NCBI GenBank assembly: GCA_964430355.1
Contig: CAYSFW010000005.1
Location: 13,177 to 77,176 of the forward strand
Direction: 5' to 3'
DNA length: 64,000 bases
From: an uncultured Thiotrichales bacterium
GTDB taxonomy: Bacteria; Pseudomonadota; Gammaproteobacteria; UWMA-0217
The notes below the pieces were generated by a model. The model saw only the letters and a list, made by a program, of their open reading frames with translations. It did not search any database and was not told the origin of the DNA. Shown one piece after another: positions 24,572 to 39,470 of the stretch. The stretch's first letter is position 1. Each line of letters starts with the position of its first letter. The position numbers were made by a program, and so were the translations under genes.

Positions 24572-25525
24572 TCAGTCTCCGTTTTCGATGCGTTGCCACG
24601 AGTTTTCATTGAGCTGGACTTCGTAGGCCGCCCAGCGCGAAAACTCCGCGCGGGTGGCGATCCCGCTGTCGCGGCGACGCAGCCCTGCCACGACCCGGTA
24701 GATCACCGTGCCACCGTCAGGCTCGTTGTCGCCCGATTCGTCGATCACCCGTCGAATCTCCCACTCGTCACCGTACTTGCCGTTGCTGTAGTAGTGGCCG
24801 AGCCGGATCGAGCGCGGATGCAGTGTTTCGCGGGTGTGCCGGTGCATCGCGATGTCGTAGATGCGCAGCAGATCCTGTTCGCTGACGTCGACGAAGGAGC
24901 CGATCTCGCTGAGGGCGTAGACGAAATCCGCGTGGCTGATCGCGGGCTCGCTCGTGGGTTCGGCCTCTGGCGCCCGCAGGCGCGGCTTGAGCGCGGCCGG
25001 ATAGCGCCGCCAGGCAAGCGGGTAGTTGAACGCGATGGCGACGACGAGCAGGACGATGAGGTTCTCCAAGACGGGCGTGAGCACAAACCCGTATCCGAGG
25101 GACTGGATCTGTGGTCCGCCCACGGCCGCGACGAGCGCAGTGCCTCCGCCGGGCGGATGGATGCAACGCAGGTAGTGCATCGCACCAATGCTGAGCCCGA
25201 CCGCAAGCGCCCCGGCCAGCGCGGGCTCTGCGACCGTCTTCGCGCAGGTCACACCGATCAGTGCGGCGATGAGGTGCCCCCCGGCGAGCGGCCAGGGTTG
25301 CGAAAACGGGCCGTGCGGGGCGGCGAAGAGCAGGACCGCGCTCGCACCCATGGAGGCGACGACCAGCATAGCGCCGGTGTCGCCCACGAACGCGCGGGCC
25401 ACCCAGAACGTGGCCAGTATGCCGATGAACCCGCCGAGTGCCGAGAGCGAGCGCTCCGTGTGACTGACAGGCGCCCCGGCCACGCCGAGCCACTGCACGA
25501 GCCGGGCGGCGATGGGGTGGTTCAA
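24572..25525 (-). CDS. HPP-family membrane protein with a cytoplasmic C-terminal extension
   Basis: Four hydrophobic segments including the 'HPPGGG' family motif, then a ~110-aa soluble C-terminal domain. The stop lies 4 nt before the cytochrome c' start. Confidence 0.6.
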   Translation of the reverse strand: MNHPIAARLVQWLGVAGAPVSHTERSLSALGGFIGILATFWVARAFVGDTGAMLVVASMGASAVLLFAAPHGPFSQPWPLAGGHLIAALIGVTCAKTVAEPALAGALAVGLSIGAMHYLRCIHPPGGGTALVAAVGGPQIQSLGYGFVLTPVLENLIVLLVVAIAFNYPLAWRRYPAALKPRLRAPEAEPTSEPAISHADFVYALSEIGSFVDVSEQDLLRIYDIAMHRHTRETLHPRSIRLGHYYSNGKYGDEWEIRRVIDESGDNEPDGGTVIYRVVAGLRRRDSGIATRAEFSRWAAYEVQLNENSWQRIENGD

Positions 25526-25834
25526 TGCGCGATTCCGGTAGCGAGCGCGGGACGTTCGTCAGCCTGGCCGTACCCGCCAGCTGCCACACACACGTTCGGG
25601 ATTCTTCGCTCAGTCATGGCCTTGCGCACCGAAGCAGGGGTTCACTCGTCATTAGGGGCGCGCTGACTATTGCACCCGGAATGCCTGAGAGCAAGCTAGG
25701 GCCCGCACCACCTCGCGGCGGTTACTTCGGCGAAGCACGAATGAAACGCCCGCTCCCTTGGGGCGAGGGGCAGGCGAGAGAGAGGGAACGGGTCGCTCAG
25801 CATGGCCCTCGCGTGCTGGCCGGCGACGGCCGAG

Positions 25835-26230
25835 TCAGCGCCTGACATCGGCCCCAAACGTCCAGAAGTGGTTGGCGGAGAAGTTCCAGAGCAGCACGAG
25901 CGCAGTGGTGATCGCCTGCGCCAACAGGTAATAAATCCCCAACCTCACGGCCAACACCTCCATGCCAAGCGCGTTGAGGACGAAGCCGACGCCAGCGACC
26001 GCAAGAAACCGGGTCAGCGCAACCCGGTGCTCGGCCTGCGATCGGTAGTTCCAGCGATAGTTGAGCGCGTAGTTGACCAGTGCGCCGGCGATCGCACCCA
26101 GGCTCGACCCCGCCACCGGCCCCATACCGAGCACGTCCACGCCCAGCGCGAGCACCGCAAAGTGACACAGCGTGCCGAGGACGCCGAACGCGGCGAAGGT
26201 CAGGAAATGTCGAACCGTGCTGGCCACGTC
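25835..26230 (-). CDS. GtrA-family polysaccharide biosynthesis membrane protein
   Basis: 'LVNYALNYRWNYR' and 'NFSANHFWTF' are typical of GtrA. Start uncertain, possibly a GTG. Confidence 0.55.
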   Translation of the reverse strand, partial: DVASTVRHFLTFAAFGVLGTLCHFAVLALGVDVLGMGPVAGSSLGAIAGALVNYALNYRWNYRSQAEHRVALTRFLAVAGVGFVLNALGMEVLAVRLGIYYLLAQAITTALVLLWNFSANHFWTFGADVRR

Positions 26231-26317
26231 GGGTGTGCCTATGCCGTGATCCCGTCGCGGACGGGATCCGCCGGTGGCAACGCGGGTTGCCCGGTGCACC
26301 GGCTACAATCGTCGTGC

Positions 26318-27340
26318 ATGATGACCACCGAGCATCCCCTCATGTCCGCAAGCCCCGCATCCGCCCAGTCCACCGCGCCGGCACAGCCCGAACTGAGCCT
26401 CGTTGCGCCGGCCTACCGTGAGTCCGCCCACCTTGCCACATTCGTGAGCGAGGTTGAACGACAACTCGCGCCGTGCGGCGTGGACTTTGAGCTGATCGTC
26501 GTAGACGACGGCAGCCCGGACGACACCTTCGAGGTTCTCACCCGGCTGGCTGCCCGGCGCCCGTGGCTGCGTGGGTTGCGGCTGTCGCGCAATTTCGGCA
26601 AGGAGGCGGCGCTGCACGCGGGCCTGGCCGAAGCGCGCGGCCGCGCAGTGGTCACGCTGGATGCCGACCTCCAGCATCCACTCGCGCTCGTACCGGCCAT
26701 GCTCGAGGCCTGGCGGAGGGGTGCTGAGGTTGTGCACGCCGTCAAGACCGAACGCGCCGCGCACGGGCGGGCCTACTCGCTCGCGGCCAACGCCTTCACC
26801 GCGTTGTTGTCGCGCTTGTCCGGCGTCGCCCTGCGTGATGCGTCGGACTACAAGCTGCTCGACCGCGGGGTGGTGGACATCCTGGTGCGCGACCTGCCCG
26901 AGCGGGAAAGGTTCTTTCGCGGACTGGCGCAGTGGGTCGGCTTCCGGCAAGTGGAGATCCCGTTCGACGTCGCACCCGGCACGCGGGACGAGCGGCGCTG
27001 GACGCTGCAGGGCCTGGTCAAGCTCGCGGTATCGGCCCTTGTCTCCTTCACCAACCTGCCGATGCAGCTCGTGACGTTGTTTGGTTTTATCACCCTGCTG
27101 CTGTCAATCGGACTCGGTGGCGAGGCCCTGGTCTCGTGGGTGCGAGGCGAGGCCGTCGCGGGCTTTCTCACCATCATTTCCGTCCTGCTCATCCTCGGCA
27201 GCTTCATCATGATCAGCCTCGGCATCATCGGCGTCTACATCGCCAAGATCTACGAGGAGGTGAAACGCCGGCCGATGTTCATCGTGCACCGGCGGCTGCC
27301 GGGCGGCGACGAGGTTGCCGGGGGGCGTGATGGTGACTGA
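26318..27340 (+). CDS. GT2 polyprenyl-phosphate glycosyltransferase (DPM1/ArnC/GtrB-like)
   Basis: 'LIVVDDGSPDDT', 'TLDADLQHP', and two C-terminal transmembrane segments. The tracked ORF 25802.. is an upstream run-on; the real ATG is at 26318. Confidence 0.8.
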   Translation: MMTTEHPLMSASPASAQSTAPAQPELSLVAPAYRESAHLATFVSEVERQLAPCGVDFELIVVDDGSPDDTFEVLTRLAARRPWLRGLRLSRNFGKEAALHAGLAEARGRAVVTLDADLQHPLALVPAMLEAWRRGAEVVHAVKTERAAHGRAYSLAANAFTALLSRLSGVALRDASDYKLLDRGVVDILVRDLPERERFFRGLAQWVGFRQVEIPFDVAPGTRDERRWTLQGLVKLAVSALVSFTNLPMQLVTLFGFITLLLSIGLGGEALVSWVRGEAVAGFLTIISVLLILGSFIMISLGIIGVYIAKIYEEVKRRPMFIVHRRLPGGDEVAGGRDGD

Positions 27341-27463: not shown

Positions 27464-28057
27464 TCACGGTGCGGCTGGCCTCGCGGTGGTTGAAGCCGCG
27501 TCCGTACCGTGCAGCGTGAGGTCGAAGGCGAGGGGTCGCCCCCCGGGGTCGTGCAGCTGCAACTCCACGCGCCGGTTGATCGCGTGGGCGGTCGCGGGCT
27601 CACCTGCGGGGAGCGGCAACGCCGCGCCGATCGGCGCGGCGATCAGGCGCTCACGACCGATGCCTCTCTCAACGAGCGACTCCACAACGAACGAGGTTCG
27701 GCGCCGGGCGAGGTAAAGGTTGTATTCGTTGCTGCCACGGGGGTCGGTGAAGCCCTGGATGCCAAGCTTGAGCTCCGGGTACGCACGCAGCACGGCGACG
27801 ACGCGATCTAGCCGCGCGGCTTCCGTGGGCTGGAGCTCGGCGCGGTCGTAGGCGAAGTACACCGCCGGTTCCCAGGGCAGACCTGCTGCCGTCGGACGAC
27901 CGCTGATGACCGGTTTCTCGTCGACGAGGGTGACGACCTGCGGCTTGCAAATGTGCTGATCATACTCAGCGTAGAGCGCCTCGGTGGTGGCGCAGCCTAG
28001 CAGCGCGGCGGTGCCGGCCAAGGCGAACGCTAGTTCCAGTTTGATCGTGGGCTTCAT
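27464..28057 (-). CDS. OmpA/Pal-like peptidoglycan-binding lipoprotein
   Basis: Lipobox 'LLGCAT' and OmpA_C-like 'TDPRGSNEYNLYLARRR'. Confidence 0.8.
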   Translation of the reverse strand: MKPTIKLELAFALAGTAALLGCATTEALYAEYDQHICKPQVVTLVDEKPVISGRPTAAGLPWEPAVYFAYDRAELQPTEAARLDRVVAVLRAYPELKLGIQGFTDPRGSNEYNLYLARRRTSFVVESLVERGIGRERLIAAPIGAALPLPAGEPATAHAINRRVELQLHDPGGRPLAFDLTLHGTDAASTTARPAAP

Positions 28058-28154
28058 TCGTCACTCCCTTCGTACAGCCTGGCCCATCTCGCGCACATTG
28101 CCCGGGCTCGATAGGGCGCGGTATTCGACGAAAGCCGGTCGCCGCCGCGGGCGG

Positions 28155-31100
28155 TCAGTGCGCATCGCTCAGCCATCCGAGCAGGTCCTCGTCGAACTTG
28201 AATTGGAAATCGAGCTGGAAGCCACGGGCGTTGTAGCCCTGCGGGTCGAGCTCGCGATCGCGGAACCCGGCGAGGTTGTAGGCCGACCCAACCCGCAGGT
28301 TGCGGTTGAGCAGGTAATGCACGCCAAAGCCCGCCGCGTGTCGCAGCGACTTGCCGCCATCGGTGGCAAGCAAACCCGCACGCAGGTCGATATCCCAGCG
28401 GCGGTCGACGTCCCAGGTGACGCGCCCGTCAAGGAGCCACGCATCGCCTGTCGTCTCGAGGCCATCGGCGAGTTCGCTGGTGACGTGCTTGTGGCCCAGG
28501 CGGCCGAAGAGCGTCAGCGCCGAGCTTAGTTCGTAGTTGTGGTGCGTGGCGAACAGGTGCACATGGCGCTTGTTGGCGTCCATGCCGAAAAACTCCTCGA
28601 TCCACTTGTACATCACCAGCAGGTGGTAGCGGTTGTCGAGCTTGGGGCGGCGGGTGACGCCGATGGCGAGTTCGCTGCGGTATTTGCGCGCGCCTTCGTC
28701 CGGGACCTGCAAGGTGAGCTGCTCGCGCACCATGCCGCTCCAGTCGCGGTCGAGCCGGGTGGCGAAGCTGCCGCGCACGCCGTAGTAGTCGCTCGCATCG
28801 GCCTGTCGAGTCTCGATCTGTGCGGTAAGGCGGCGGTTGGGGTCGCGCGCATCCTTGATGGCGATTGAGGTGGCCACGCCGTCGGCTAGCTCCGCGCTGC
28901 CCTTGCCCTCGGTGCGCAGGGTGTCGACGACCTCTACGCGCGGGACGACGGTAAGGTTGGGCACCGGCTCGAAATTGCCGCGCACCCCGTTGGCGGTGGC
29001 GAAGTCGCGGCCGTCCGTCACGCCGCGCACGCGGTATTCGCTGTAAAGCTGGGTACCCGGCAGCAGATCGGTCTTCACCCCGGCGGAGAGCGTCCGGCGG
29101 GATTCGGTGTCGCTGACTCCTGCAACGCCGGCCAGGCTGTCGATGTGCTCGAAATCCGCGTAGACGGACGCCTTCGGCAGCACCTTGACCTCGCCGGAGA
29201 GCAGCACGCGCTTGCGTTCGGCGTCGGCGAAGGCCCGCTCGAACTCCACCCCGACCGTGCCCTGGCGCCCCAGCAGCTCAAAGCCCTTGCTCACGCCGAG
29301 CACGAACGTGGAGAAGTGCTCGCGCTCCTCCTTGTGCTCCTGCGCGATCTGGCGCACGCCGACGCGCAGCTTCACGCCGGCCTTCGGCAGCGTGGTGTCG
29401 ATCAGCGCGCCGACGGCACTGCGGCTGTCTCGCTCGCCGCTGAGTGCGCGGCTGTGCGTGCCCTCGACGGTAAGTATCTGTCGCTCGTTGAGGCGTTGGC
29501 TGTGGGCGAGGCGCGCCTCCTCGCGACCGGCGAGCACGCCACTCCCGGGGTTATTGAAACCGGCTTCGGCGCGTGCGGCCTTGACCTGGGTACGGGCATC
29601 GGCGTTCCAGCGTTGTTCGAGCTGGACATCCCAGGCCTTGCCCTCGCTGCCATTGGTGTCCTGCGTCATGCGCCCGACGCTCGCCGCGATGCGGGTGCGG
29701 TCATCATCACTGCGATACTCGACGAAGCTGCCGGTGAGCTTGCTGCCTTCGGTGGGATGGGCGTTGTTGGTGTGACTTACGCCGGCCGTGAGGCCCTTGC
29801 AAATGCGCTGCACGAGGCGCCAGCCGGTCACGGTGTAGGGCGCGCCTTTGCCAGCGAGGTCGTAGGTCACGCGCAGGAACATCGGATTGCGTTCCTCGTC
29901 GAAGGCCGGGATGGTGCGGAAGAAGGTCAGATTGCCGGTCAGGTGGTCGAGTTGATAGTCGCCGAAGCGCGTGAGCGTTTCGGCGGACAGGATGAGACCC
30001 GGGTTGTCGCGCCCGCGCACGATCAACTCGATGACCTCGCTGTTCTGCACGATCGGCGCCCGAGACAGGCGGTAGAACATCGCCGTGCCGTTGCCCCGCA
30101 GCTCCTCGGTGAAGCGCAACGCCTCGGTTTCTGCCCGGAGTGCCTGAAGGCGCGTGCCGCCCGTGTCGAACAGGGCATTGGCGCCGGTCAGTGTGTACTG
30201 GGTGCGCGCGACGTTGGAGAGCGGCGTCTGGGCATCGGTGAGGAAGTCGCCCCACATCAGGCTGTGCTTGCCGCGTTCGAGCTTGGCGTAGAGCTTGCTG
30301 CGGCTCTGTGCCTCGTAGCCGCGTACCGAGGCGTCACCGAGGATGGGGTAGGTCTCGGCCGGATCGATGTCGCGCAGGAGGGTCTCCTCGCCGCGCTTGT
30401 CGGTATCGTAGGAGAGGGTGAGGTGCAAGTCGCCGCGCACGCGGCCTTTCATGAACACCGCGCTGCGGCCCTGCGCCCGCGTGCCGTCGGCGAGCCCCTC
30501 GCGCTGGCGGGTCGGCGCCTCGATGCGGGTATCGAGCGCGTTCCGGCGCACAGTACCGTCGACGACGCCGATGGCGACGAGCGGTCGCATCGGCGCAACC
30601 TGGGTGAGGCGGACCTCCTCCCGCAGCCTGCCCTCGGCGGCGCGGATCGTGAGCTGCCCGGTGAACTCCGAGCTTCGCAGGTGCACGGTGCGCTCGCCGC
30701 CGCGGATGCGGATCTGATGGCCAGGCTCGCGGTCCTGGATGTCGGGCTCGACCCACTGGCCGTCGCTCGCCTGGAGCGTTACGAAGTAAACGCCGTGCGC
30801 CGGCTGGCCGAAGCGGTCGAGCAGCCGCACGCGCACCGGCAGGGTGGAGCGCCCGCCATCGGCCTCCAGCGTGTCGCGCTCGGGCTTGAGTTCGATGCGC
30901 TCGGCCACGCCCGGCCGGCGCAGCGCGCGCTGTGTGAGCACGCGGCGGTTGCCGAAGGGGTCCGTCGCCACGACCTCGACCGCGTTTTCGCCTTCGCGCA
31001 GATTGACGCCGTACCACGCGAGGACCTGGGCCTGCTCGGCCTTATTCACGATCTGCTCGCCGAGTTGGCTTCTCGGGACTTCCTCGCCGTTGACGGTGAG

Positions 31101-34100
31101 CCTTGGTTCGATGTTCGCTGGCAGCACGATCATCAAGCGGCCATCGTCGCTGAGCTCGCCAGGTGGCCATAGCCATTCCGCGGCCTTGGCCTGCGCGCGG
31201 GTCACGCTTTTCACGATCTCGCTCGCCTTGGGCGGTTGCGGTTCGGGCGGCTCGCGCGTGTTGGCCGGCTGGGGCGATGGTGCGGACGGCCGGGCATCGG
31301 GTGGGCGTGGCGCCGTCTGCGCCTGCCGTGGGTCGCGCTGACTGCGCGAGCCGTTGAGGATGCCTTGGGACAGGTCGCCATCGGCTGACCCCACTGTGCC
31401 CAGCCGGTTCCGGTCGCGTTGGGTCCGATCTCCAGCCAAGTTGGCGCCGGGTTCCGGCGCGAGGCGCGCTGCCTCATCCAGCGCCCAGGCGCCGTTGAGC
31501 AGGGCGTTGCGGGCTTTAATCTGGGCCAGCACACGGTCGACCTGGTCGGACGGGGGGCAGGCTGCGGCGAAATCGGCGCGGTGGAACTCGCCGGGCACGA
31601 GGTCGAGCAACCGGCTGTCACCATCGGCCAAATGGCGGTTGCCGAGTGGCTTCAGGCGCAGCCCTTCGATCAGGGTCAAGGGGTCCACCTTGATCGCGTG
31701 CAGGCCCGGCTTGAGTCCGTAGAGGCTGTATTGGCCGTGCTCGTCGGTGATGGCGAAGCTGCCGTTTTCCAGATACAGCTTCACCCCGCCGATCGGCCAC
31801 TCGCCACGGCTCTGGATGCGGTTGCAGTCCGCATCGAGATACACCTTGCCGAAGACGATGGCGTTGTCGGAGAGGACACCCTCTGGCCGTACCTGGACTT
31901 TGACGCGCGCCTCGGTCGAGCGCAGCGTGCGGTCGGACGCGGTGCGGCCCTCGGCGCTCGCGCGGTTCAACCCGTCGCCGTCCACTGCACCGGCGCTGGT
32001 GCGCAGCGCATAGCTGACAGTAGTCCGCGCGCCGGGGGCCAGGGTGCCGAGCGCGAACTCGAGTTCCGGCGTGAACCGTAGTGGACCGTCTATGGGTTTA
32101 CCGTCCCAGCGCGCGGAGCGCTCGACGTACTTGAAGCCGTAAGGTGGCTGGTCGCGCAGCCGTACGTCACGCAGCGCTTGAGTACTGCGGTTGCTCACCA
32201 CGACCTCGTAGGCCACGACGTCGGCCAGCCCCACAGCCGGTCGCGAGGCGCGCTTCTCCACCGTGAGGTTGCCGGTCACCGCGGGGTCGAGCGGCACGTC
32301 GATGCGCGGCAGGTCGCCATCCGCATCGAGCTGGAACACGCTGCTCGCGCCGCCGCCCGGTGGACCATCGCGCCCGTAGGAATACGCGCCGACTTGGCGT
32401 CCAAACTGCGCGCGCAGGGCATCCGGCGCGACGGTCGAGGGGAAGTCGTGGGAGGGTGGTGGCTCGACACGCAGGTAGTAGGCGCCGCTGCCGAGGCGGG
32501 GGAAGCGGAACTGACCGTCGGCGCGGGTGGTTGACGCGGCGCTCTCCGCTTCCCCCGCGTCGGGGTCGTGCGCCGGGGCACCGTCCGCGGTGTGGAAATA
32601 CACTGTGGCGCCGGCGACCGGCTGACCGCTCTGACTGTCGAACACCGTGCCGAGCGGATCCACGACGGCCGCGTCGAGCAACACCGGGCCAAGGCGGGAC
32701 TCGCGGAAGGTCACGCGCAGGGTATCGTTGCCGCGGGTCAGCAGCACGCAGGCGCCGTCCGGGGTTGCCGTGTAGCTCGGCAGGGGTGTGGCATCCGGCG
32801 CGAGGCGGGCGGCGCGGGCCGGACAGACGCTGCCATTGCCGCGCAGGCGGTCACTGGTGACGACGGGCTCGATGCTGCGGTAGACGCCCGAAAAGGGCTG
32901 GGTCTCGAGCATCACCACGTCGATCCAGTCGCCGGTTCCGGTCGATTCCAGCCGCACACGGATCACGGTCGGCTTGCCGTCCGCCCATTGGGCGATGGGT
33001 CGGAAGCTCTCCATCTGGACCTCGATGTAGATGCCGTCGCGCAGCGCGTTGTAGGTTGTCTCACCGGAGGCGATGCGGTACTGGCGTGCGTCTTCGAAGT
33101 CCGCGTCGCGCCAGAAGTCGGGGGCAGCTGTCGTGCGGCGCAGCGCTGCGACAGGCTGAAGGAAGCGGATCTTCGCCGTCGGTGGTGGTCCGTTGACCGC
33201 GTTGCACACCGGGTTGCTCTGGAACTCGGCCCGTCCGTCGCCGTCGAGGTCCGCCTCGGCCACGCTCTGCAGTCGTTCGTCCGCGTACGGCGCACGGTCG
33301 ACGCGCATGGCCCAGGCAAGCGCACCGCTCTGGTTGGGGCGCAGGTGTTCGGGCGGGACCAGCAGGCCAATGCGTGCCAGACGGTCCGTGCCGTTCCATT
33401 GCGCCAGTGTGTGCCAGACGTCGGCAGGGTCCTGGCTGCGGTGCACGAGGGTCACCCCCTGCACCGGCGCATGGCGGAAGAACGACGGCTGAGGCTTGAG
33501 CAGGGCGGCGTAGGGCGACAGCGTGGCCGTCACCAGCGCGCCCTGTCGGGCTGCGCCGTCTACCAGGATCACGCGCGGTGGCGGCGGGCGGTCGCCAATG
33601 TTCGTGAACTCCAGCGTGTAGCGCAGCTCCGCACCGCGCTCGAGCGGAAATTCGCAGGGCGAGGAAGCGGTCAGCTTGAGGTCCAGGAAGGCCGTGTCGG
33701 CGAGCAGGCTCGCGGTATCCGTGACCTCGGCTAGGGCCTCTGCGTGCGCCTGTGATTGCGCAGTGAGCCGCAACGCAAGCCGGTGGCTGGCGCCCGCGCT
33801 GCCCGGCACCGTCCCCGTGACCACCAGATCCAGCGCGCCGCCCGGTGGCAGGGGGGCAGTCTGGCTGACGCGAGGTTCCCCGGGATCGGCCACGCCGTTG
33901 CCATTTCGATCCTCGATGACCCGAATGTCGAGAAAATCGGCGTCGTCGCCGGTCAGGTTGGCCGCGGTGAGCTGGAAGCTGTCCGCGACATTGCCCGTGT
34001 TGACCAGCCGGTGGCCTAGGTTGACCGTCTGCCCGGCGCGCACGTTCAGCGTACGCGGGTTGTGCAGCGCGACCGCGAAGCCCTGGCCAACGACGACCGA

Positions 34101-34376
34101 AGCGATGTTGGAAACCACGCGCACCGCCTTGCCGGCCTCCTCGTCGAAATACGTCGCCTCGGCGACGTTGATGATCTGCGTGCCGGCCGGTGTCGCCGCC
34201 AGGACGCGGAGCGGGAGTAGCACGAGGGACAGAAACGCGCAGAGCACCCAGAGCCAGCAGGCTTTGGGCGCTCGGGAAATGCGGACGTTCCGGTCCGCGA
34301 TGTTCACCGTCCCTGGTTGCAATGCTCCTCCCGTGCCGGTTTCGACCGCGGGTTTGGCTGGCCGCCGGAGAACCAC
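28155..34376 (-). CDS. giant (about 2070 aa) DUF11-repeat surface protein with carboxypeptidase-regulatory-like domain and C-terminal beta-barrel-like region
   Basis: N-terminal 'TPAGTQIINVAEATYFDEEAG' DUF11 signature shared with the next gene. 'GATVYFHTADG' CarbPepD_reg-like motif. The last ~750 aa show alternating amphipathic beta-strand periodicity. Start may be an internal GTG. Confidence 0.7.
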   Translation of the reverse strand: MVLRRPAKPAVETGTGGALQPGTVNIADRNVRISRAPKACWLWVLCAFLSLVLLPLRVLAATPAGTQIINVAEATYFDEEAGKAVRVVSNIASVVVGQGFAVALHNPRTLNVRAGQTVNLGHRLVNTGNVADSFQLTAANLTGDDADFLDIRVIEDRNGNGVADPGEPRVSQTAPLPPGGALDLVVTGTVPGSAGASHRLALRLTAQSQAHAEALAEVTDTASLLADTAFLDLKLTASSPCEFPLERGAELRYTLEFTNIGDRPPPPRVILVDGAARQGALVTATLSPYAALLKPQPSFFRHAPVQGVTLVHRSQDPADVWHTLAQWNGTDRLARIGLLVPPEHLRPNQSGALAWAMRVDRAPYADERLQSVAEADLDGDGRAEFQSNPVCNAVNGPPPTAKIRFLQPVAALRRTTAAPDFWRDADFEDARQYRIASGETTYNALRDGIYIEVQMESFRPIAQWADGKPTVIRVRLESTGTGDWIDVVMLETQPFSGVYRSIEPVVTSDRLRGNGSVCPARAARLAPDATPLPSYTATPDGACVLLTRGNDTLRVTFRESRLGPVLLDAAVVDPLGTVFDSQSGQPVAGATVYFHTADGAPAHDPDAGEAESAASTTRADGQFRFPRLGSGAYYLRVEPPPSHDFPSTVAPDALRAQFGRQVGAYSYGRDGPPGGGASSVFQLDADGDLPRIDVPLDPAVTGNLTVEKRASRPAVGLADVVAYEVVVSNRSTQALRDVRLRDQPPYGFKYVERSARWDGKPIDGPLRFTPELEFALGTLAPGARTTVSYALRTSAGAVDGDGLNRASAEGRTASDRTLRSTEARVKVQVRPEGVLSDNAIVFGKVYLDADCNRIQSRGEWPIGGVKLYLENGSFAITDEHGQYSLYGLKPGLHAIKVDPLTLIEGLRLKPLGNRHLADGDSRLLDLVPGEFHRADFAAACPPSDQVDRVLAQIKARNALLNGAWALDEAARLAPEPGANLAGDRTQRDRNRLGTVGSADGDLSQGILNGSRSQRDPRQAQTAPRPPDARPSAPSPQPANTREPPEPQPPKASEIVKSVTRAQAKAAEWLWPPGELSDDGRLMIVLPANIEPRLTVNGEEVPRSQLGEQIVNKAEQAQVLAWYGVNLREGENAVEVVATDPFGNRRVLTQRALRRPGVAERIELKPERDTLEADGGRSTLPVRVRLLDRFGQPAHGVYFVTLQASDGQWVEPDIQDREPGHQIRIRGGERTVHLRSSEFTGQLTIRAAEGRLREEVRLTQVAPMRPLVAIGVVDGTVRRNALDTRIEAPTRQREGLADGTRAQGRSAVFMKGRVRGDLHLTLSYDTDKRGEETLLRDIDPAETYPILGDASVRGYEAQSRSKLYAKLERGKHSLMWGDFLTDAQTPLSNVARTQYTLTGANALFDTGGTRLQALRAETEALRFTEELRGNGTAMFYRLSRAPIVQNSEVIELIVRGRDNPGLILSAETLTRFGDYQLDHLTGNLTFFRTIPAFDEERNPMFLRVTYDLAGKGAPYTVTGWRLVQRICKGLTAGVSHTNNAHPTEGSKLTGSFVEYRSDDDRTRIAASVGRMTQDTNGSEGKAWDVQLEQRWNADARTQVKAARAEAGFNNPGSGVLAGREEARLAHSQRLNERQILTVEGTHSRALSGERDSRSAVGALIDTTLPKAGVKLRVGVRQIAQEHKEEREHFSTFVLGVSKGFELLGRQGTVGVEFERAFADAERKRVLLSGEVKVLPKASVYADFEHIDSLAGVAGVSDTESRRTLSAGVKTDLLPGTQLYSEYRVRGVTDGRDFATANGVRGNFEPVPNLTVVPRVEVVDTLRTEGKGSAELADGVATSIAIKDARDPNRRLTAQIETRQADASDYYGVRGSFATRLDRDWSGMVREQLTLQVPDEGARKYRSELAIGVTRRPKLDNRYHLLVMYKWIEEFFGMDANKRHVHLFATHHNYELSSALTLFGRLGHKHVTSELADGLETTGDAWLLDGRVTWDVDRRWDIDLRAGLLATDGGKSLRHAAGFGVHYLLNRNLRVGSAYNLAGFRDRELDPQGYNARGFQLDFQFKFDEDLLGWLSDAH

Positions 34377-34571
34377 CGCAGTGGCCGTTTCCGCACTGAC
34401 CTGTCGGGCCTGAGTCGCCCGCTCTTTTGTTGGCCGCCTGTATGGCGATGTGTTCTCGCCGCGTCTTGCCGGTCATCACGCCGGTGGCATGACGGAAGCG
34501 CCGCGGGCATCCGCGCCAATCCGTCTCACCGGCCGGTCGCCGTTCCCTTGCCGATTCCGAGTGCGGCGTGC

Positions 34572-37496
34572 CTACTGCACACGTACACAGAACGCACCGG
34601 TCGCTTCGTCCCCGGCAGCCACGTCGCCTGCCGAGAAGGTGACGTTGGATCCCGACACACTGCCCTTGTCCGCATCGGCCGCGTCAGTCACCGCAGCGAG
34701 GGTGCAGCCGAGGTGTTCGCAGTACCGGAGCCTGCCGGCTTCGAGGGTGGTGAAGGCCGGCGCCTGGTCCTGGATCGTCACGTTCCTCGCGACGGTAGCC
34801 CCTTCGTTAACGGCCCGAAGCTGCCAAACGATGCACTCGTCCGGCTTGACCCGGGTCGATGGCATCTCGCTGAAGCTCGTTGCCGTGCAGGCGCAGGTGG
34901 CATCGACGGCGGCCTTCTTGTAGAGCCGAACCTGGCTGGTGATGACCTCGCTCAGGTCGGCCACGCTCGAGGCGCCGCAGCTGTCAGAATCTGCGTCGGT
35001 GGCACTGACCGTGCTGGTGTCGACCAGACCGGCCGTCGCGCTGGAGGGTGCAAATACACGCAGCTTCATGGGTAGCGAGTAACCCGGCGGCAGGGTAATG
35101 GTCGGTCCCGCACCGAGAGTCACCGCCACGGCTGCACCGCTGCCGTTGAGCGCATACACGGTGCTGCCCCCGCTGAGCGTCGACCAGGGCGCGAGCGTGG
35201 TCATCCCGGCGTTGGTGTAGAGCTCGAGCTGGCCAGCCCAGCTCTGCGAGCTTCCGAGCGTGAGGCCGAAGGTCTGCGGCTTGTTGCCGGCGTTGGTCAG
35301 GGTGTGCAGGTAGTCTACCGTGCCACCCGGCTGGATCTGGTTCTGCCCCGGCGGAGTCAGGGCGACCGAGCACAGGCCGGCGACATCCACCGCATCGTGC
35401 ACCACGTCGCTCGCACCGGTTGCGGAGGACACGGCGCGGAAGAACAGCAGGTAGTCGTTGTCCCCGTCGGCGTTGCCGTCCACTGTGCTGTTGCCGTTCG
35501 CGAGCGCGAGCACCGGGTCATTGGGGATCCTGACCTCGGCCTTCAGCCACATGACCGCGCCGCCGGGCAGCACGGGCGTGCTGGTGATCGCGGCGTTGGT
35601 TGCAGCGATGTCGAAGCTGCCATTGCCGTCGCTGTCGATGCCATGGTGGCGGAATATGACCTGCCAGCCGGCGTGCAGCGCCCCGAGCGTCGTACCGTCC
35701 CAACTACCGCCTGCATACAGCGCGTAGGCATCAGGACTACCCGCCTCGTTGGCGACGTAGAGGTCGAAGGTCACGGTGGCACCGACGTTACCGGTCTGGG
35801 TCTGGGTCGGGTTGCCGGCGCTGTAGGCGTGGATGTCCGTGCCCGTGCCGAGGCCGGTGGCGGTGTTGGCAATATCGACCGCCGTGCCGGCGATGCTCGT
35901 CAGAACCTCGAGAACGGTGTCGCTCGCGGGTGTGGCAGCGGGATCACCGGCGGACGTTGCCTTGGCCGTGGCAACGAAGGGCCCGGCCCCGCTTGCGCCG
36001 GAGGGCAGCTTGGCCTTGATCACCAGCGAGTAGCTCGCGCCCGGCGCGACCGGTCCCGTGTCGACCACGCCATCACCGTTGGTATCCGTGAGCTGGACCG
36101 CTCCTGTTGAGTCCCACACCGAGAACATAGTCCCAGCCGGGAATGCCACTGCACCACCGGGCACCGTGCCACTGCCCACGTAACTCGCGCCCGCATCGTT
36201 GCTCACGGTGATGTTGAAGGTATCGTTTCCGTTTGCGCCGTTCACGACAACGTGACTGAACAACACGAAGGCGCCCGCCGACGCGGTGTCGACGATCTGC
36301 TCGTCGTCCAGCGTCGCGTCGTCGTCGCCGCCGTTGTTCACGCCGGCGCCGGCGTTGGTGCCGGTGTCCCGGAACGTCAAACCGAAGGCGGAGGTCAGCG
36401 GAACGATGACCTTGTTTGAGCGGGTCGCGGGGGTGTTGGTGCCATCAGCGTAAGCGACGTTAGCGATGACGTCATCGGCGATCTGGCCGTTGCCGTTGCG
36501 ATCGAGGGCGGTGCTCGTGGGCGAGTAGCTCACGGTAAAGCTCATTGTCACGGTGTTGTTGGGAGGTAGCGCGGCGTCCGTGCCGGTCACCGTGTAAAAC
36601 CCGGAAGTCGTCAAAGCGCCGTCACCGTCTACGTCCTTGCCGAGCGTCGCCTCGCTGGTGGTAGAGCCGGAAACGGCGGGCAGGGTGTCGCCGTTGCCCA
36701 CGAGCAGACCGGAGGCACTTGCCGAGGAGAACGTCGTGCCGACCGGCACCCAGTCGAGGATTTCGACGTCGGTGGCGGTCTGTCCGCCCACGTTCTTGAC
36801 CGTCACGGTGTAGGTGACGGTGTGCGCGGCCGTGTCGTGCGTCGCGCTCTTCGTGACCACCAGTACGGGGCCGTTGGTCACGGTGACCACCCCTTGTACG
36901 GCGCCCTCGGCGGCGTCCAGGCCGTTGCCCGTGGAGAGATCATCCACGGTGATGTGCGTCGAAGAGACAGCGAGGTTGACGGCGATGACCTGGCTCGCCG
37001 AGGCCGTGCCGGGGACTTCTGCCGCGACGACGACGCTTTCCCGTTGGGAGGCCAGCACGGTCAGGGCGCCGGTGATCTGCGGCTCACCCGGGTCCGGCTG
37101 GCCGTTGCCGTTGAGGTCGTGGTAGATCGCGAGCGACGAAGCATCCTGGTTGTCGCCATAGGTGCCAGTGCCGACGTTGCTGGCGGTCAAGGTGTAGCTG
37201 TCGGTCGCGTTGCCGGTGTTGCTGAGCACGAAGGGCAGGTAGACGGTCTGGCCCGGTGCGGCCTCCAGCGCCACATCGCGTTCGATGGTCGCAGCGTAGA
37301 CCTCGGCAACCGTAACGATGGCCTCGTTGGACTGCGCGGAGTAGGTGTTGCCAGCCTCGTCCTGGTAAGTCACGGTGGCCAGGTTCTTGATCTGGGTGCC
37401 CGCCGGGGTCATGCCCCAGGCAACGCCCGCGACCAGCAGGGCGAGCAGGGCAGCGCCCCTGCACAGCCACGGTTTTGTCCTCTTGCGCGTGTTCAC
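34572..37496 (-). CDS. DUF11-repeat secreted/surface protein (974 aa)
   Basis: Signal peptide followed by 'TPAGTQIKNLATVTYQDEAGN', then multiple T/V/G-rich Ig-like repeats ('VTYTVTVKNVGG'). Confidence 0.7.
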   Translation of the reverse strand: MNTRKRTKPWLCRGAALLALLVAGVAWGMTPAGTQIKNLATVTYQDEAGNTYSAQSNEAIVTVAEVYAATIERDVALEAAPGQTVYLPFVLSNTGNATDSYTLTASNVGTGTYGDNQDASSLAIYHDLNGNGQPDPGEPQITGALTVLASQRESVVVAAEVPGTASASQVIAVNLAVSSTHITVDDLSTGNGLDAAEGAVQGVVTVTNGPVLVVTKSATHDTAAHTVTYTVTVKNVGGQTATDVEILDWVPVGTTFSSASASGLLVGNGDTLPAVSGSTTSEATLGKDVDGDGALTTSGFYTVTGTDAALPPNNTVTMSFTVSYSPTSTALDRNGNGQIADDVIANVAYADGTNTPATRSNKVIVPLTSAFGLTFRDTGTNAGAGVNNGGDDDATLDDEQIVDTASAGAFVLFSHVVVNGANGNDTFNITVSNDAGASYVGSGTVPGGAVAFPAGTMFSVWDSTGAVQLTDTNGDGVVDTGPVAPGASYSLVIKAKLPSGASGAGPFVATAKATSAGDPAATPASDTVLEVLTSIAGTAVDIANTATGLGTGTDIHAYSAGNPTQTQTGNVGATVTFDLYVANEAGSPDAYALYAGGSWDGTTLGALHAGWQVIFRHHGIDSDGNGSFDIAATNAAITSTPVLPGGAVMWLKAEVRIPNDPVLALANGNSTVDGNADGDNDYLLFFRAVSSATGASDVVHDAVDVAGLCSVALTPPGQNQIQPGGTVDYLHTLTNAGNKPQTFGLTLGSSQSWAGQLELYTNAGMTTLAPWSTLSGGSTVYALNGSGAAVAVTLGAGPTITLPPGYSLPMKLRVFAPSSATAGLVDTSTVSATDADSDSCGASSVADLSEVITSQVRLYKKAAVDATCACTATSFSEMPSTRVKPDECIVWQLRAVNEGATVARNVTIQDQAPAFTTLEAGRLRYCEHLGCTLAAVTDAADADKGSVSGSNVTFSAGDVAAGDEATGAFCVRVQ

Positions 37497-37571
37497 TGCG
37501 TGACGCTCCCTTTCGTCGGTTCAGCCCGGCCCGTCTTGTCGCGGGCCTCGTGGGTAATGGTGGTGGAGGAT

Positions 37572-38069
37572 CTAGTCGACCTTGACCCGGTAGCGAAACC
37601 GCTTTTCAGCGCCTGCGGCCAGTGCTCCACCCAGCCGCCAGCGCAGGTGGGTGTATTCCTCGGGTGGGACGACGTAGGTCTCCTCACGGCCGTTGGGCAA
37701 CCGGCGCACGCGTTTGACCGGCTCGGGTTCGAAGGTCTTGCCGCCGTCGATGCTGACCAAGACCTCACGGGCGCCCTCTGGCCTCGCCGAGCCAGGAACG
37801 AACTGCGTCTTGGCGGGTACGGGGCCCGTGACCTCGATACCGTTCAGCGCCTGCTTGCCGGCGTTGCGGTACACCAACTGGTACTCGAGCACATCGCCCG
37901 GCACGACGGCCGCACCGGGCTTGAGCGTCTCCTTGCCGTCCTTGTCGCGCTTGACGACAAAGGCATCCATGCGGCTTTCCAGCGGCGCGGCAGCGAGCGG
38001 CTGGACGGCGAGTAGTGCCAGACAGAGCAACACTGCGAACCGGACGAGGCAATGTCCTGTGATTTCCAT
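37572..38069 (-). CDS. small secreted single-DUF11-domain protein (166 aa)
   Basis: Signal peptide and 'VLEYQLVYRNAGKQALNGIEVTGPVP' DUF11 core. First gene of the three-gene DUF11 locus. Confidence 0.6.
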   Translation of the reverse strand: MEITGHCLVRFAVLLCLALLAVQPLAAAPLESRMDAFVVKRDKDGKETLKPGAAVVPGDVLEYQLVYRNAGKQALNGIEVTGPVPAKTQFVPGSARPEGAREVLVSIDGGKTFEPEPVKRVRRLPNGREETYVVPPEEYTHLRWRLGGALAAGAEKRFRYRVKVD

Positions 38070-38500
38070 GTCTCTCCCCTTGCAATCCGTCGCTTGGCAG
38101 GCGCTGGTTAAGCGCGTGCGCAGTTCGAACATCAAACACCTGGCCGGATTTTAGGCGCCCGACCCAGTCGGTTCGGCGACACAGCGCACAGCCGGCCCGC
38201 TATCGAAAGGGACGTTCACACAATAATTGAGCAACCTGGGGAATCGGGATTCGCTCGGCACACAGCGAACCTAGGGCTTGCGGCGAGCGGGAGTGCGCTG
38301 CACAAGACGAGTATCAGCGGGGTGGACACGGTAGAGAGGCGGAGCCGTCGCAGAGGCTTCCTCGCAAAACCGTGAAGTCCGACTAAACTCGAAACAATTA
38401 TTTTCATCGTGTGGCTGGTGTTGTTTCCGCGTGTGGGAACGGTGTCGCGGCTCACGCCGCGTCGTGTTGTGTATCGATGGATTTCCGAGGGAGGTGGGCC

Positions 38501-39331
38501 ATGAGCAAACGGGCGCTTTGCATCGGCATTAATGACTATCCAGGCACCGCGAACGATCTCGCCGGTTGCGTGAATGACGCGCGCGACTGGGCGGATGTGC
38601 TGGATAAGCGGGGGTTCTCCGTCACGACGCTGCTCGACGGCGCCGCGACCAAGGCGGGTATGGTCGCGGCGATCCAGGATCTGATCGGTAGTGCAGTGCG
38701 GGGCGACAGCCTCGTGATCACCTATTCCGGTCACGGCACCTTCGTGCCCGATGCCAGCGGCGACGAGCCCGACGGGCAGGATGAGGGCCTGTGCCCCTAT
38801 GACATCGGCCAAGGCGCAGTGCTGCTCGATGACGAGATCCACGCGTTATTTGCCGCCCGCGGCCCGGGCGTGAAGATCGTGCTGATCTCGGACAGCTGCC
38901 ACTCGGGCACCGTTATCCGCTGGGGCGGACCCGATCCGGACAGCGATGCGCCCCGTGCGCGGTTTCTGCCGCCCGCTGCCTGGATGCCGGCGGAGCGCCT
39001 GCCGAGGAGTGCCTCGGGCGGTAGCCTAACGCGGGTACATCCCGGGCGCCCGGTGCAGAGCGCCTGGACCAACGCGCTGTCACTCGGGGAGGGTGATCTG
39101 CTCATGGCCGGCTGCCGGGATACCGAGTACAGCTACGACGCGCGCTTTGCGGGCCGCCCGAACGGGGCGTTCACCTACTACGCGCTGAAGACCCTCAGGA
39201 CGCTGCCAGCCGGTGCGACCTACGGCAATTGGTACACCGCCATCCGCAACTACCTGCCGGCGGCCAGTTACCCGCAAACGCCGCAGATCCTGGGCGGCAA
39301 GGCGCAGCGGCGCTTCAAGGTCCTGGCGTAA
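38501..39331 (+). CDS. caspase-like peptidase, MEROPS C14 (metacaspase/orthocaspase)
   Basis: 'ALCIGINDYPG...LAGCVNDA', catalytic His in 'YSGHG' and catalytic Cys in 'DSCHSG'. Confidence 0.8.
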   Translation: MSKRALCIGINDYPGTANDLAGCVNDARDWADVLDKRGFSVTTLLDGAATKAGMVAAIQDLIGSAVRGDSLVITYSGHGTFVPDASGDEPDGQDEGLCPYDIGQGAVLLDDEIHALFAARGPGVKIVLISDSCHSGTVIRWGGPDPDSDAPRARFLPPAAWMPAERLPRSASGGSLTRVHPGRPVQSAWTNALSLGEGDLLMAGCRDTEYSYDARFAGRPNGAFTYYALKTLRTLPAGATYGNWYTAIRNYLPAASYPQTPQILGGKAQRRFKVLA

Positions 39332-39470
39332 GCACCAGCCGGCAGTGCGTCCGTCCCGCACCGGGCGGACCCGTACCTGGCCCCTCTGCCGCGGGTGACG
39401 CGGCGGGTCCCGTGGGGGCCAGTAGGCTCTGTGGCCGGATCACAGATCGATAGACCCATCGGAACCTCGA

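What the first reader, a model, noticed from the sequence alone, without database searches (positions are those of the whole stretch)
27464..38069. Four-gene envelope locus: three DUF11-repeat proteins of increasing size plus an OmpA-like lipoprotein; the largest has a C-terminal beta-barrel-like region
Seen: co-oriented genes of 166 aa (single DUF11), 974 aa and ~2070 aa. The two large proteins share an N-terminal motif TPAGTQI-N-A-ATY-DEAG after a signal peptide. The last ~750 aa of the largest show alternating hydrophobic/polar beta-strand periodicity with aromatic girdle residues and end '...FQLDFQFKF'. The locus terminates with a Pal/OmpA lipoprotein. Inference: small subunit plus large adhesin-like protein plus outer-membrane-embedded giant component plus peptidoglycan anchor. 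This resembles the logic of a fimbrial or usher-type or novel fibre-assembly system, but fits none of the classical chaperone-usher, autotransporter or two-partner secretion (TPS) systems.
Basis: partly seen in the sequence, partly recalled or inferred. Interest (0 to 1): 0.7.

Follow-up and report, generated by a model that had tools for sequence, protein, structure and literature searches.

The report
Split-domain surface fibre with barrel anchor
This conserved gene cluster seems to build a cell-surface fibre whose proteins join head-to-tail, each one supplying the missing strands of its neighbour's unfinished domain. The fibre is rooted in the outer membrane by an unusually large barrel, and I found no description of such a system for two-membrane bacteria in the literature I could search.

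Summary

The new point concerns the shared N-terminal motif of B and C. It is the missing last two strands, including the isopeptide Asn, of a CLIPPER (DUF11) domain. B ends in a CLIPPER domain that stops just before those strands and keeps an invariant Lys and Asp. Two related MAGs carry a natural B-C fusion that joins the halves seamlessly. AlphaFold docks donor onto acceptor with confidence (pLDDT 86-97, pTM 0.78).

The best reading is a modular fibre, probably locked by isopeptide bonds. C is the base and barrel anchor, B the extension, D a peptidoglycan tether, and A an acceptor-like cap or chaperone. All of this is computational. Covalency, surface exposure and the export route are inferred.

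The parts
37572..38069 (-). Gene A: 165-aa secreted protein with a signal peptide (aa 1-27). It has a single CLIPPER/DUF11-like domain that ends after the 'RFRYRVKVD' strand, and no donor motif. It is acceptor-like, but the catalytic Lys and Asp are not conserved across homologues. Proposed role: distal cap or periplasmic donor-strand chaperone.
   Evidence: TIGR01451 36.6 bits. Alignment of 48 homologues. Weak match to the acceptor HMM, 22.4 bits. Present upstream of B-C in 47 of 49 loci.
34572..37496 (-). Gene B: 974-aa multi-domain Ig-like extension subunit carrying both a donor and an acceptor.
   Evidence: 263 homologues at E<=1e-10, named only 'hypothetical', 'DUF11 domain-containing' or 'beta strand repeat-containing'.
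37305..37412 (-). B donor: mature N-terminus MTPAGTQIKNLATVTYQDEAGNTYSAQSNEAIVTVA, aa 29-64. Asn38 is at 37383..37385. It corresponds to the last two strands of a CLIPPER domain.
   Evidence: Asn present in 68 of 68 scorable B/E donors. AlphaFold pLDDT 86-97 when tethered to the acceptor.
36381..36884 (-). B internal complete CLIPPER domain (aa ~205-372) with its own Lys216, Asp248 and Asn346. It shows what the complete domain looks like in the same protein.
   Evidence: Pfam DUF11 37.5 bits. Residues located.
34575..34949 (-). B acceptor: C-terminal CLIPPER domain (aa 850-974) that stops at the stop codon before the Asn-bearing strand. Lys860 is at 34917..34919 and Asp910 at 34767..34769. It also has a conserved Cys pair.
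   Evidence: Pfam DUF11 profile positions 10-84 of 114 only. The family HMM of the complete domain is matched only to about position 85 of 136, with Asn at 103. Lys and Asp are invariant in 28 sequences from several phyla and in 61 B homologues.
28155..34376 (-). Gene C: base protein of about 2055-2073 aa. Order of parts: signal peptide, donor strands, Ig-like stalk, Pro-rich linker, Big-like domains, giant C-terminal beta-barrel, short conserved tail.
34089..34196 (-). C donor: ATPAGTQIINVAEATYFDEEAGKAVRVVSNIASVVV, aa 61-96. Asn70 is at 34167..34169.
   Evidence: Asn in 47 of 48 scorable C donors. In L038 and L043 this segment follows B's acceptor directly in one ORF.
31872..32279 (-). C internal complete CLIPPER domain (aa 700-835; Lys708, Asp742, Asn804), flanked by CarboxypepD_reg (32463..32651) and SdrD_B (31686..31844) domains.
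31227..31340 (-). Pro-rich low-complexity linker in C (aa ~1013-1050) between the stalk and the barrel-proximal domains.
   Evidence: Read directly from the sequence.
28194..30293 (-). Predicted outer-membrane beta-barrel of C (aa ~1362-2061). DSSP lists about 32 long strands from aa 1498 to 2061, plus shorter strands before them that could be further barrel strands or a plug.
28158..28193 (-). Conserved periplasmic tail after the last barrel strand (DEDLLGWLSDAH; family consensus KFDEDLFxWL). This is where OmpA domains are fused in Bacteroidota homologues.
   Evidence: Consensus. Fusions in L063 and L080.
27464..28057 (-). Gene D: OmpA-family lipoprotein (lipobox Cys22 at 27992..27994; OmpA domain aa 67-162). 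Proposed peptidoglycan tether for the barrel. It is an accessory component.

Best explanation
The locus encodes a modular surface fibre for a two-membrane bacterium. It is assembled by trans-complementation of a split CLIPPER (DUF11, CnaA-like isopeptide) domain.

Proposed steps:

1. All four proteins are exported by Sec.
2. The C-terminal ~700 aa of C fold into a very large outer-membrane beta-barrel that roots the structure. D, and in some lineages an OmpA domain fused to C, ties the barrel's periplasmic tail to peptidoglycan.
3. The mature N-terminus of C is a two-strand 'donor'. It completes the truncated C-terminal 'acceptor' CLIPPER domain of B.
4. B carries the same donor at its own N-terminus. 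It can therefore be extended by another B, by the paralogue E, or by a large acceptor-only 'tip' protein (E and tip proteins are seen in relatives), or be capped by A.
5. The invariant acceptor Lys860 and Asp910 and the donor Asn38/Asn70 most likely form a spontaneous intermolecular isopeptide bond. That would make it a natural SpyTag/SpyCatcher-like lock.

Status of each step:
- Supported by sequence and by structure or profile prediction: gene content, synteny, the truncated acceptor, the donor's identity as the missing strands, conservation of the triad, the cis fusion, the predicted docking and the predicted barrel.
- Inferred: covalent bond formation, stoichiometry (a defined C-B-A chain versus a B polymer) and surface location.
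- Speculative: export of folded, ligated Ig domains through the giant barrel.
- A's role as cap or chaperone is the weakest part.
For: 1. The acceptor is truncated.
- B's last domain matches Pfam DUF11 only over profile positions 10-84 of 114 and then meets the stop codon.
- Against an HMM of the family's own complete internal CLIPPER domain (136 positions, Asn at 103), B acceptors end at a median of position 85. The E paralogues end at position 92 with 1 residue left before the stop.

2. The donor is the missing piece.
- 118 of 120 donors map to HMM positions >=95, against 51% of shuffled or reversed controls.
- Appending the B or C donor raises B's DUF11 score from 26.1 to 34.7 or 33.2 bits and extends coverage to positions 101-103. 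Four control peptides give 27.5-29.0 bits.

3. The catalytic triad is conserved across the split.
- Lys, Asp and Asn are invariant in 28 acceptor+donor pairs from several phyla and in 61 B homologues.
- Asn is present in 68 of 68 B/E donors and 47 of 48 C donors.

4. There is a natural fusion.
- In two Burkholderiales MAGs (L038, L043), B and C form one ORF. The acceptor runs straight into the donor with no signal peptide ('...LYFCVKIDP|VAAGSTVSNQASS...').
- Pfam DUF11 covers positions 10-114 of 114 across the junction.

5. AlphaFold2 supports docking. The construct was B29-82 joined to B827-974, with 60 full-length homologues as a paired alignment.
- Donor pLDDT is 86/97/96/88, the linker 46-56 and the acceptor 94-98.
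- pTM is 0.78, about equal to the fraction of the chain in donor plus acceptor.

6. The module is general. At least 29 related loci also encode large proteins that end in the same truncated acceptor (Lys and Asp >=85% conserved) but have no donor.

7. The barrel is supported.

8. The peptidoglycan link is supported by OmpA lying adjacent in 28 of 69 loci, and fused after the barrel tail in L063 and L080.

9. CLIPPER domains are experimentally shown to form Lys-Asn isopeptide bonds catalysed by Asp (bioRxiv 10.1101/2025.04.25.650565). Donor-strand exchange locked by intermolecular isopeptides has precedents in archaeal threads (PMC9715654) and C. perfringens BsaA (10.1101/2024.11.04.621531).
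Against: - Nothing here is experimental.
- The AlphaFold construct tethers donor and acceptor in one chain. Coordinates are not returned, so the Lys-Asn distance was not checked.
- The profile-score gain over controls is modest, about 5-6 bits.
- Foldseek found no significant match for the permuted chimera.
- The B-C fusion is seen in two closely related MAGs, so probably reflects one event. No further fusion was found among 168 proteins fetched in the C-barrel family searches.
- For A, appending a donor did not beat the controls clearly (29.3-32.3 vs 26.8-28.2 bits), and A lacks conserved Lys and Asp.
- No export route or energy source for B and A is identified.
- The extracellular location of C's N-terminal stalk is assumed by analogy with autotransporters.
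- The OmpA partner is missing from more than half of the loci.
Confidence: 0.55

Rival explanations
1. These are independent adhesins with no trans-complementation. C is a giant autotransporter-like outer-membrane adhesin, and B and A are separate secreted DUF11 proteins. The N-terminal strands simply belong to each protein's own first domain or fold back in cis. B's last domain is a stable, naturally shorter Ig-like variant.
Against: This does not explain why Lys and Asp stay invariant in a domain that has no Asn strand, while an invariant Asn sits at the mature N-terminus of the partner. It does not explain why the B-C fusion joins exactly these two pieces into a full-length DUF11 match. It does not explain why acceptor-only and donor-bearing proteins co-occur in one cluster across phyla.
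Confidence: 0.15
2. The shared N-terminal motif is a sorting or secretion signal. The barrel of C would recognise it, as the TPS domain is recognised by TpsB or pilin N-terminal extensions by an usher. C would then be the dedicated translocon for B, without strand donation.
For: The motif lies at the extreme mature N-terminus of the exported proteins. The barrel is very large and belongs to no known family. The genes are tightly linked.
Against: The presumed transporter C carries the same motif. The acceptor-only tip proteins and A lack it yet sit in the same clusters. The motif matches the terminal strands of CLIPPER domains and is found in cis after the acceptor in the fusions. No POTRA, usher or TPS domains were detected.
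Confidence: 0.1
3. The proteins form an envelope scaffold rather than a fibre. C plus D would be an outer-membrane-to-peptidoglycan tether or S-layer-like coat, comparable to Deinococcus SlpA or OmpM, with the Ig-like region periplasmic or lying on the surface. B and A would be accessory layer proteins.
Against: OmpA linkage is absent in most loci. CLIPPER, SdrD_B and CarboxypepD_reg-type domains are typical of the stalks of surface fibrillar adhesins. This reading does not conflict with split-domain ligation; it only changes where the product sits.
Confidence: 0.1

Closest known systems
Chaperone-usher pili (Fim/Pap)
   Same: Subunits have an incomplete Ig-like fold that is completed by an N-terminal extension of the neighbouring subunit. 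There is an outer-membrane barrel at the base. Tip-type (acceptor-only), shaft-type (donor plus acceptor) and terminator/anchor-type (donor-only) components sit in one operon.
   Different: No PapD-like chaperone and no usher family match. Subunits are 900-2500 aa multi-domain proteins, not ~150-aa pilins. The donor supplies two strands and carries an Asn positioned for a covalent lock. The barrel is fused to the terminator subunit and is predicted to have about 32 or more strands, against 24.
Sortase-assembled Gram-positive pili (SpaA, RrgB, BcpA)
   Different: No LPXTG and no sortase was seen among the window genes scanned. The predicted link is autocatalytic within a split domain. The host has two membranes, and the base is a beta-barrel rather than a cell-wall-linked pilin.
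Archaeal thread filaments (Saci_0406) and C. perfringens BsaA
   Same: Donor-strand complementation between subunits reinforced by intermolecular isopeptide bonds ('exchange and lock'). Sources: PMC9715654; 10.1101/2024.11.04.621531.
   Different: The folds are unrelated (TasA-like or thread subunit versus CLIPPER). These are small single-domain subunits. The hosts are archaeal or Gram-positive. There is no outer-membrane barrel component.
SpyTag/SpyCatcher and other engineered split isopeptide domains
   Same: A Lys/acid-bearing truncated Ig-like domain plus a short strand that carries the partner residue and ligates spontaneously.
   Different: Those are laboratory splits of a CnaB2 domain (Lys-Asp). 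Here the split would be natural, in a CnaA-like CLIPPER domain (Lys-Asn), and used for assembly in vivo.
Type V secretion: autotransporters and intimin/invasin
   Same: A single polypeptide combines an outer-membrane barrel with a long Ig-like passenger. Both barrel termini are periplasmic. Some have peptidoglycan-binding partners.
   Different: No Autotransporter or intimin barrel family match. The barrel is about three times larger than the 12-strand type V barrels. The passenger is extended by other proteins.
Giant outer-membrane barrels (LptD 26 strands, SlpA 30, SprA 36)
   Different: No sequence-family relationship was detected, and the partners and context differ.

Membership tests
CLIPPER / DUF11 (PF01345) isopeptide domain | Match to the family profile above the curated cut-off | tested here: met
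   B 37.5 bits and C 32.8 bits against a cut-off of 24.6. A reaches 19.8 bits on Pfam but 36.6 bits on TIGR01451 (cut-off 24). B's C-terminal domain alone scores 26.1 bits.
CLIPPER / DUF11 (PF01345) isopeptide domain | Lys (first strand), Asp and Asn (penultimate strand) triad within one domain | tested here: met
   Internal domains have B K216/D248/N346 and C K708/D742/N804. In the terminal domain of B, the Lys and Asp are present but the Asn strand is absent from the chain and is found at the N-termini of B and C. That makes it a split version.
CLIPPER / DUF11 (PF01345) isopeptide domain | An isopeptide bond actually forms | not testable with these tools
   Needs mass spectrometry or a structure.
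Chaperone-usher pilus system | PapD-like periplasmic chaperone and usher (PF00577) barrel | tested here: not met
Chaperone-usher pilus system | Subunit fold completed by the N-terminal strand of the next subunit | tested here: inconclusive
   The analogous logic is supported by prediction, but in a non-homologous domain and without experimental proof.
Type V autotransporter / two-partner secretion | 12-strand autotransporter beta-domain, intimin-type barrel, or TpsB with POTRA plus a TPS domain | tested here: not met
   No matches. The barrel is predicted to have about 32 or more strands.
Sortase-dependent pili | LPXTG sorting signal and a sortase gene | tested here: not met
   No LPXTG in A-D; the single loose regex hit, LPKAG in C, does not fit it. 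No sortase among the neighbouring genes scanned.
OmpA-family peptidoglycan-binding lipoprotein (gene D) | OmpA_C-like domain and a lipobox | tested here: met
   PF00691 scores 52.6 bits against a cut-off of 27.2. The lipobox is LLGC with Cys22.
Pal (TIGR02802 equivalog) | Score above the equivalog cut-off | tested here: not met
   66.6 bits against a cut-off of 125.35. D is OmpA-family, not Pal proper.
Outer-membrane beta-barrel (C-terminal region of C) | Closed transmembrane barrel fold | tested here: met

The most novel reading that the evidence does not exclude
This would be a previously unrecognised class of surface fibre in two-membrane bacteria, independent of sortase, usher and chaperone. 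It would be present in thousands of genomes from at least seven phyla. A naturally split CLIPPER domain would act as an intrinsic tag-and-catcher pair that covalently ligates base, extension and interchangeable tip proteins. A new family of giant (about 32 strands or more) outer-membrane barrels would both anchor the fibre and let folded, cross-linked Ig domains out. A would serve as a reverse-polarity chaperone that offers a groove to the donor strand.
Probability: 0.35. Interest if true: 0.88.

Novelty: new variant of a known kind. Interest (0 to 1): 0.78.

Why it matters
- It would add an assembly route for surface fibres in Gram-negative-type bacteria beyond the chaperone-usher, type IV, curli, type V and conjugative classes. 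The route combines donor-strand complementation with a self-made covalent lock.
- It would assign a role to a large set of proteins annotated only as 'DUF11' or 'hypothetical', and to a barrel family with about 2,600 representatives at 50% identity that Pfam and NCBIfam do not model.
- It would supply natural, orthogonal peptide/domain ligation pairs for protein engineering.
- The hypothesis is directly testable with two small recombinant pieces and three point mutants. Cultured carriers exist, including Granulosicoccus antarcticus, Thiothrix lacustris, Leucothrix pacifica, Alcanivorax jadensis and Vreelandella aquamarina.

Tried and rejected
- PDB sequence searches with C, with the acceptor+donor chimera and with its profile found nothing significant.
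- Alignments made of separate acceptor-only and donor-only fragments were misaligned by MAFFT and dropped.
- The afdb50 fold library was unavailable.
- Scoring donor peptides against the complete-domain HMM separates them from controls by mapping position, not by score (3.2 vs 1.2 bits mean).
- The chimera test for A as an acceptor did not beat the controls.
- I considered a 'donors equal acceptors' bookkeeping argument: C and B as donors, B and A as acceptors in the window. It was weakened once extra acceptor-only proteins turned up in relatives.
- A search for more B-C fusions among 168 proteins fetched in the C-barrel family searches found none.
- Promoter and terminator scans of the locus were uninformative.
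- Seven literature searches found no description of this system. The library does not cover most subscription journals.
- The source organism could not be named. The four proteins are singleton 90% clusters without names.


Full report
**What is there**

Four co-oriented genes lie on the minus strand between 27464 and 38135.

| Gene | Coordinates | Size | Notes |
|---|---|---|---|
| B | 34572..37496 | 974 aa | |
| C | 28155..34376 | 2073-aa ORF | Public gene calls use a 2055-aa start |
| D | 27464..28057 | 197 aa | |

- The gaps between genes are 75, about 195-250, and 97 nt.
- The flanking genes are unrelated and differently oriented. Upstream is a divergent caspase-like peptidase plus a 1914-aa CHAT/TPR-S protein. 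Downstream is a convergent family-2 glycosyltransferase.
- A, B and C each have one significant DUF11/TIGR01451 match.
- C also has CarboxypepD_reg and SdrD_B domains.
- D has an OmpA domain and a lipobox (LLGC, Cys22). It scores below the Pal equivalog cut-off.
- A, B and C have signal-peptide-like N-termini.
- DUF11 has recently been renamed CLIPPER. A crystal structure (9IFR) shows it to be a CnaA-like domain with an intramolecular Lys-Asn isopeptide bond catalysed by Asp. It is typical of the stalks of fibrillar adhesins (bioRxiv 10.1101/2025.04.25.650565).

**The barrel**

- The last 831 residues of C have only 23 word-index homologues, at 43% identity or less. None is named informatively. 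Some carry weak porin or OMP-barrel Pfam hits.
- An AlphaFold2 model built with 19 of them has mean pLDDT 77 and pTM 0.66. It is almost entirely beta-hairpins.
- DSSP lists about 32 long strands between model residues 256 and 819, and shorter strands before them.
- Pfam and NCBIfam have no model for this region. No usher, autotransporter, TpsB or TonB-receptor family was reported.
- An exhaustive profile search finds 2,581 representatives (50% identity clusters) at E<=1e-30. Most of those listed are ~2000-aa proteins with the barrel at the C-terminus.
- After the last strand comes a conserved tail (KFDEDLFxWL in the family, DEDLLGWLSDAH here).

**Synteny**

- Hosts include Thiothrix and Thiolinea, Granulosicoccaceae, many Burkholderiales, Verrucomicrobiota, Nitrospirota, Bacteroidota, Gemmatimonadota and Entotheonella.
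- I searched the window's four proteins against ORFs of 82 fetched loci and tallied the gene order.
  - A then B lie upstream of C in 45 of 49 loci with enough upstream sequence.
  - In 2 more loci, B and C are one ORF with A upstream.
  - OmpA is adjacent in 28 of 69 loci and fused to the end of C in 2 of 69. The two fusions are the Bacteroidota loci L063 and L080, where the barrel tail is followed by a linker and OmpA domains.
  - 24 of 69 loci have a second B-like gene ('E') after D. The window does not.
- A-B-C is therefore the conserved core and D an accessory. The second refutation condition, no synteny, is not met either.

**The N-terminal motif is a detached piece of a CLIPPER domain**

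The motif (B: MTPAGTQIKNLATVTYQDEAGNTYSAQSNEAIVTVA; C: ATPAGTQIINVAEATYFDEEAGKAVRVVSNIASVVV) begins 1-4 residues after the predicted signal-peptidase site. This holds in essentially all B, C and E homologues. It resembles the end of the complete internal CLIPPER domains of the same proteins (B '...VIANVAYADGTNTPATRSNKVIVPL', C '...GLNRASAEG...').

B, E and A all end at their stop codon immediately after the strand that normally precedes that segment ('...GAFCVRVQ*', '...RFRYRVKVD*').

Quantitatively:

| Sequence scored against Pfam DUF11 | Score (bits) | Profile positions covered |
|---|---|---|
| B's last domain alone | 26.1 | 10-84 of 114 |
| B's last domain + B donor | 34.7 | to 101 |
| B's last domain + C donor | 33.2 | to 103 |
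| B's last domain + control peptide (reversed, shuffled, unrelated, or the next segment of B) | 27.5-29.0 | 85-108 |

I also built an HMM from 76 domain matches to the complete internal CLIPPER domain of C homologues (136 positions, Asn at 103).
- B acceptors match positions 12-85.
- E acceptors match positions 14-92, with one residue to spare before the stop.
- 118 of 120 donors map to positions >=95, against 51% of controls.
- Raw donor scores are too low to be significant by themselves.

Conservation:
- In an alignment of 28 acceptor+donor pairs from several phyla, the invariant columns include the first-strand Lys, the Asp of the 'v.D..P' motif and the donor Asn.
- The same holds for 61 full-length B homologues.
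- The donor Asn is present in 68 of 68 scorable B/E donors and 47 of 48 scorable C donors.
- In the window these residues are B Lys860 and Asp910, B Asn38 and C Asn70.

**A natural fusion**

- In two Burkholderiales MAGs from different assemblies (L038, L043), B and C form a single ORF.
- B's acceptor runs directly into C's donor, with no stop, spacer or signal peptide: '...AVLYFCVKIDP|VAAGSTVSNQASSTG...SNTVSATVG'.
- Pfam DUF11 then covers profile positions 10-114 of 114 across the junction, although at scores near the cut-off (24.1 and 21.3 bits).
- The two sequences are close relatives, so this is probably one evolutionary event.
- No further fusion was found among 168 proteins fetched in the C-barrel family searches.

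**Structure prediction of the complemented domain**

- I therefore joined two exact pieces of B, donor aa 29-82 and acceptor aa 827-974, in that order. Sixty full-length homologues then align collinearly and keep donor and acceptor paired.
- AlphaFold2 gives mean pLDDT 85.9 and pTM 0.78.
  - The donor (residues 1-40) has pLDDT 86/97/96/88 and forms strands.
  - The intervening 40 residues are disordered (pLDDT 46-56).
  - The acceptor has pLDDT 94-98.
- A pTM of 0.78 for a chain in which 20% is disordered implies that donor and acceptor are placed as one rigid unit.
- Foldseek found nothing significant, as expected for a permuted chain.

**Generality of the module**

- An HMM of the truncated acceptor finds, in at least 29 related loci, a further large neighbouring protein (900-2500 aa, with a signal peptide and a varied N-terminal region).
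- These proteins end in the same stop-truncated acceptor. Lys and Asp are at least 85% conserved.
- They have no donor motif. They look like interchangeable distal 'tip' proteins.
- In the window, only B (114 bits, terminal) and A (22 bits, partial) match.
- A aligns to the acceptor, including its last strands. It has a family-specific insertion (SiDGG.tFe..P..R...vP..eY..lRW) and does not conserve the Lys or Asp.
- A could be a non-covalent cap of the free distal donor. Alternatively it could be a periplasmic chaperone that shelters donor strands before ligation. The data do not decide.

**How it most likely works**

1. Sec exports all the proteins.
2. BAM inserts C's giant barrel. Its periplasmic tail is tied to peptidoglycan by D, or by a fused OmpA domain in some lineages.
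3. C's N-terminal donor completes B's C-terminal acceptor.
4. B's own donor is taken by another acceptor: B, E, a tip protein, or A.
5. The Lys/Asp/Asn triad then forms an isopeptide bond, as in intact CLIPPER domains.

The B-C fusion shows that one B per C is a functional arrangement. A defined C-B-(cap) chain is therefore at least as likely as a long B homopolymer.

Surface exposure of the stalk, and passage of folded and possibly already ligated Ig domains through the very wide barrel, would rationalise the barrel's size. Both remain speculative.

I put about 0.55 on the overall model. Given trans-complementation, I put about 0.75 on covalency and about 0.75 on surface location.

**Comparison with known systems**

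- The assembly logic is that of chaperone-usher pili: tip, shaft and terminator defined by who has a groove and who has a donor strand. Neither chaperone nor usher is present, and the subunits are unrelated.
- The chemistry is that of Gram-positive pilins. There is no sortase or LPXTG.
- The combination 'strand exchange then isopeptide lock' is known from archaeal threads and C. perfringens BsaA, in other folds and other envelope types.
- Engineered SpyTag/SpyCatcher is the closest functional analogue of the split.
- The barrel-plus-passenger layout recalls type V secretion, but the barrel is about three times larger and unrelated by sequence.
- The CLIPPER survey paper treats only intramolecular bonds.
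- Seven full-text searches found no description of this gene cluster or of a split CLIPPER domain. Subscription-only literature is not covered.
- Database names for homologues are 'hypothetical', 'DUF11 domain-containing' or 'beta strand repeat-containing'.

**Verdict**

- I classify the system as a new variant of known kinds (strand-complemented, isopeptide-locked fibres; barrel-anchored adhesins).
- The stronger reading, a new class of fibre system in two-membrane bacteria, remains open at about 0.35.

Noticed in passing
Related loci, e.g. L027:13613-19744, L029:13211-19753, L037:13808-21259, L063:13806-20030, L003:15752-20443, L005:15441-20759: Large neighbouring genes (900-2500 aa) end in the same stop-truncated CLIPPER acceptor domain, with conserved Lys and Asp, but have no N-terminal donor motif. 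Their N-terminal regions vary. They are candidate interchangeable tip proteins. None lies within the 64-kb window.
   Followed up: partly
Related loci, e.g. L003:13104-15752, L007:13018-15681, L024:3172-5868: A second B-like gene ('E', about 890 aa, with both donor and acceptor) follows the OmpA gene in Thiothrix, Thiolinea and Granulosicoccaceae (24 of 69 loci). It is absent from the window, where a convergent glycosyltransferase follows D.
   Followed up: partly
window 38411-45215 (+): Divergently transcribed from gene A are a caspase-like Peptidase_C14 protein (306 aa) and a 1914-aa protein with DUF7379, an LCAT-like hydrolase region, CHAT and TPR-S domains. The caspase matches a PADLOC 'caspase' model and the giant protein matches none. 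This is probably a separate protease or defence-type pair.
   Followed up: partly
window 46304-50001 (-): An RNase_H_2-superfamily protein overlaps or adjoins a DEAD/Helicase_C/MrfA-Zn-binding helicase. The helicase scores strongly against the PADLOC BrxHI and SngC models.
   Followed up: no
window 6174-12809 (-): A cluster of complex-I/Mrp-like subunits (a fused 30-kDa + 49-kDa subunit, two Proton_antipo_M proteins and NADHdh) lies in a stretch of lower G+C, 55-60% against about 67% elsewhere.
   Followed up: no
window 31227-31340 (-), inside gene C: A Pro-rich low-complexity spacer of about 40 residues (…PRPPDARPSAPSPQPANTREPPEPQPPK…) separates the Ig-like stalk from the barrel-proximal domains.
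   Followed up: no
window 34575-34949 (-), B acceptor domain: Two Cys residues inside the acceptor domain are invariant in B homologues (columns C19 and C39 of alignment A3, 'D..C…PG.C'). This suggests a disulfide-stapled loop inserted between the Lys strand and the core, which the internal CLIPPER domains lack.
   Followed up: no
window 24566-27340 (+): A family-2 glycosyltransferase (512 aa) is convergent on gene D. A public gene call on the same contig shows a GtrA-like protein nearby. This may be a surface-glycan modification module, and any link to the fibre locus is untested.
   Followed up: no
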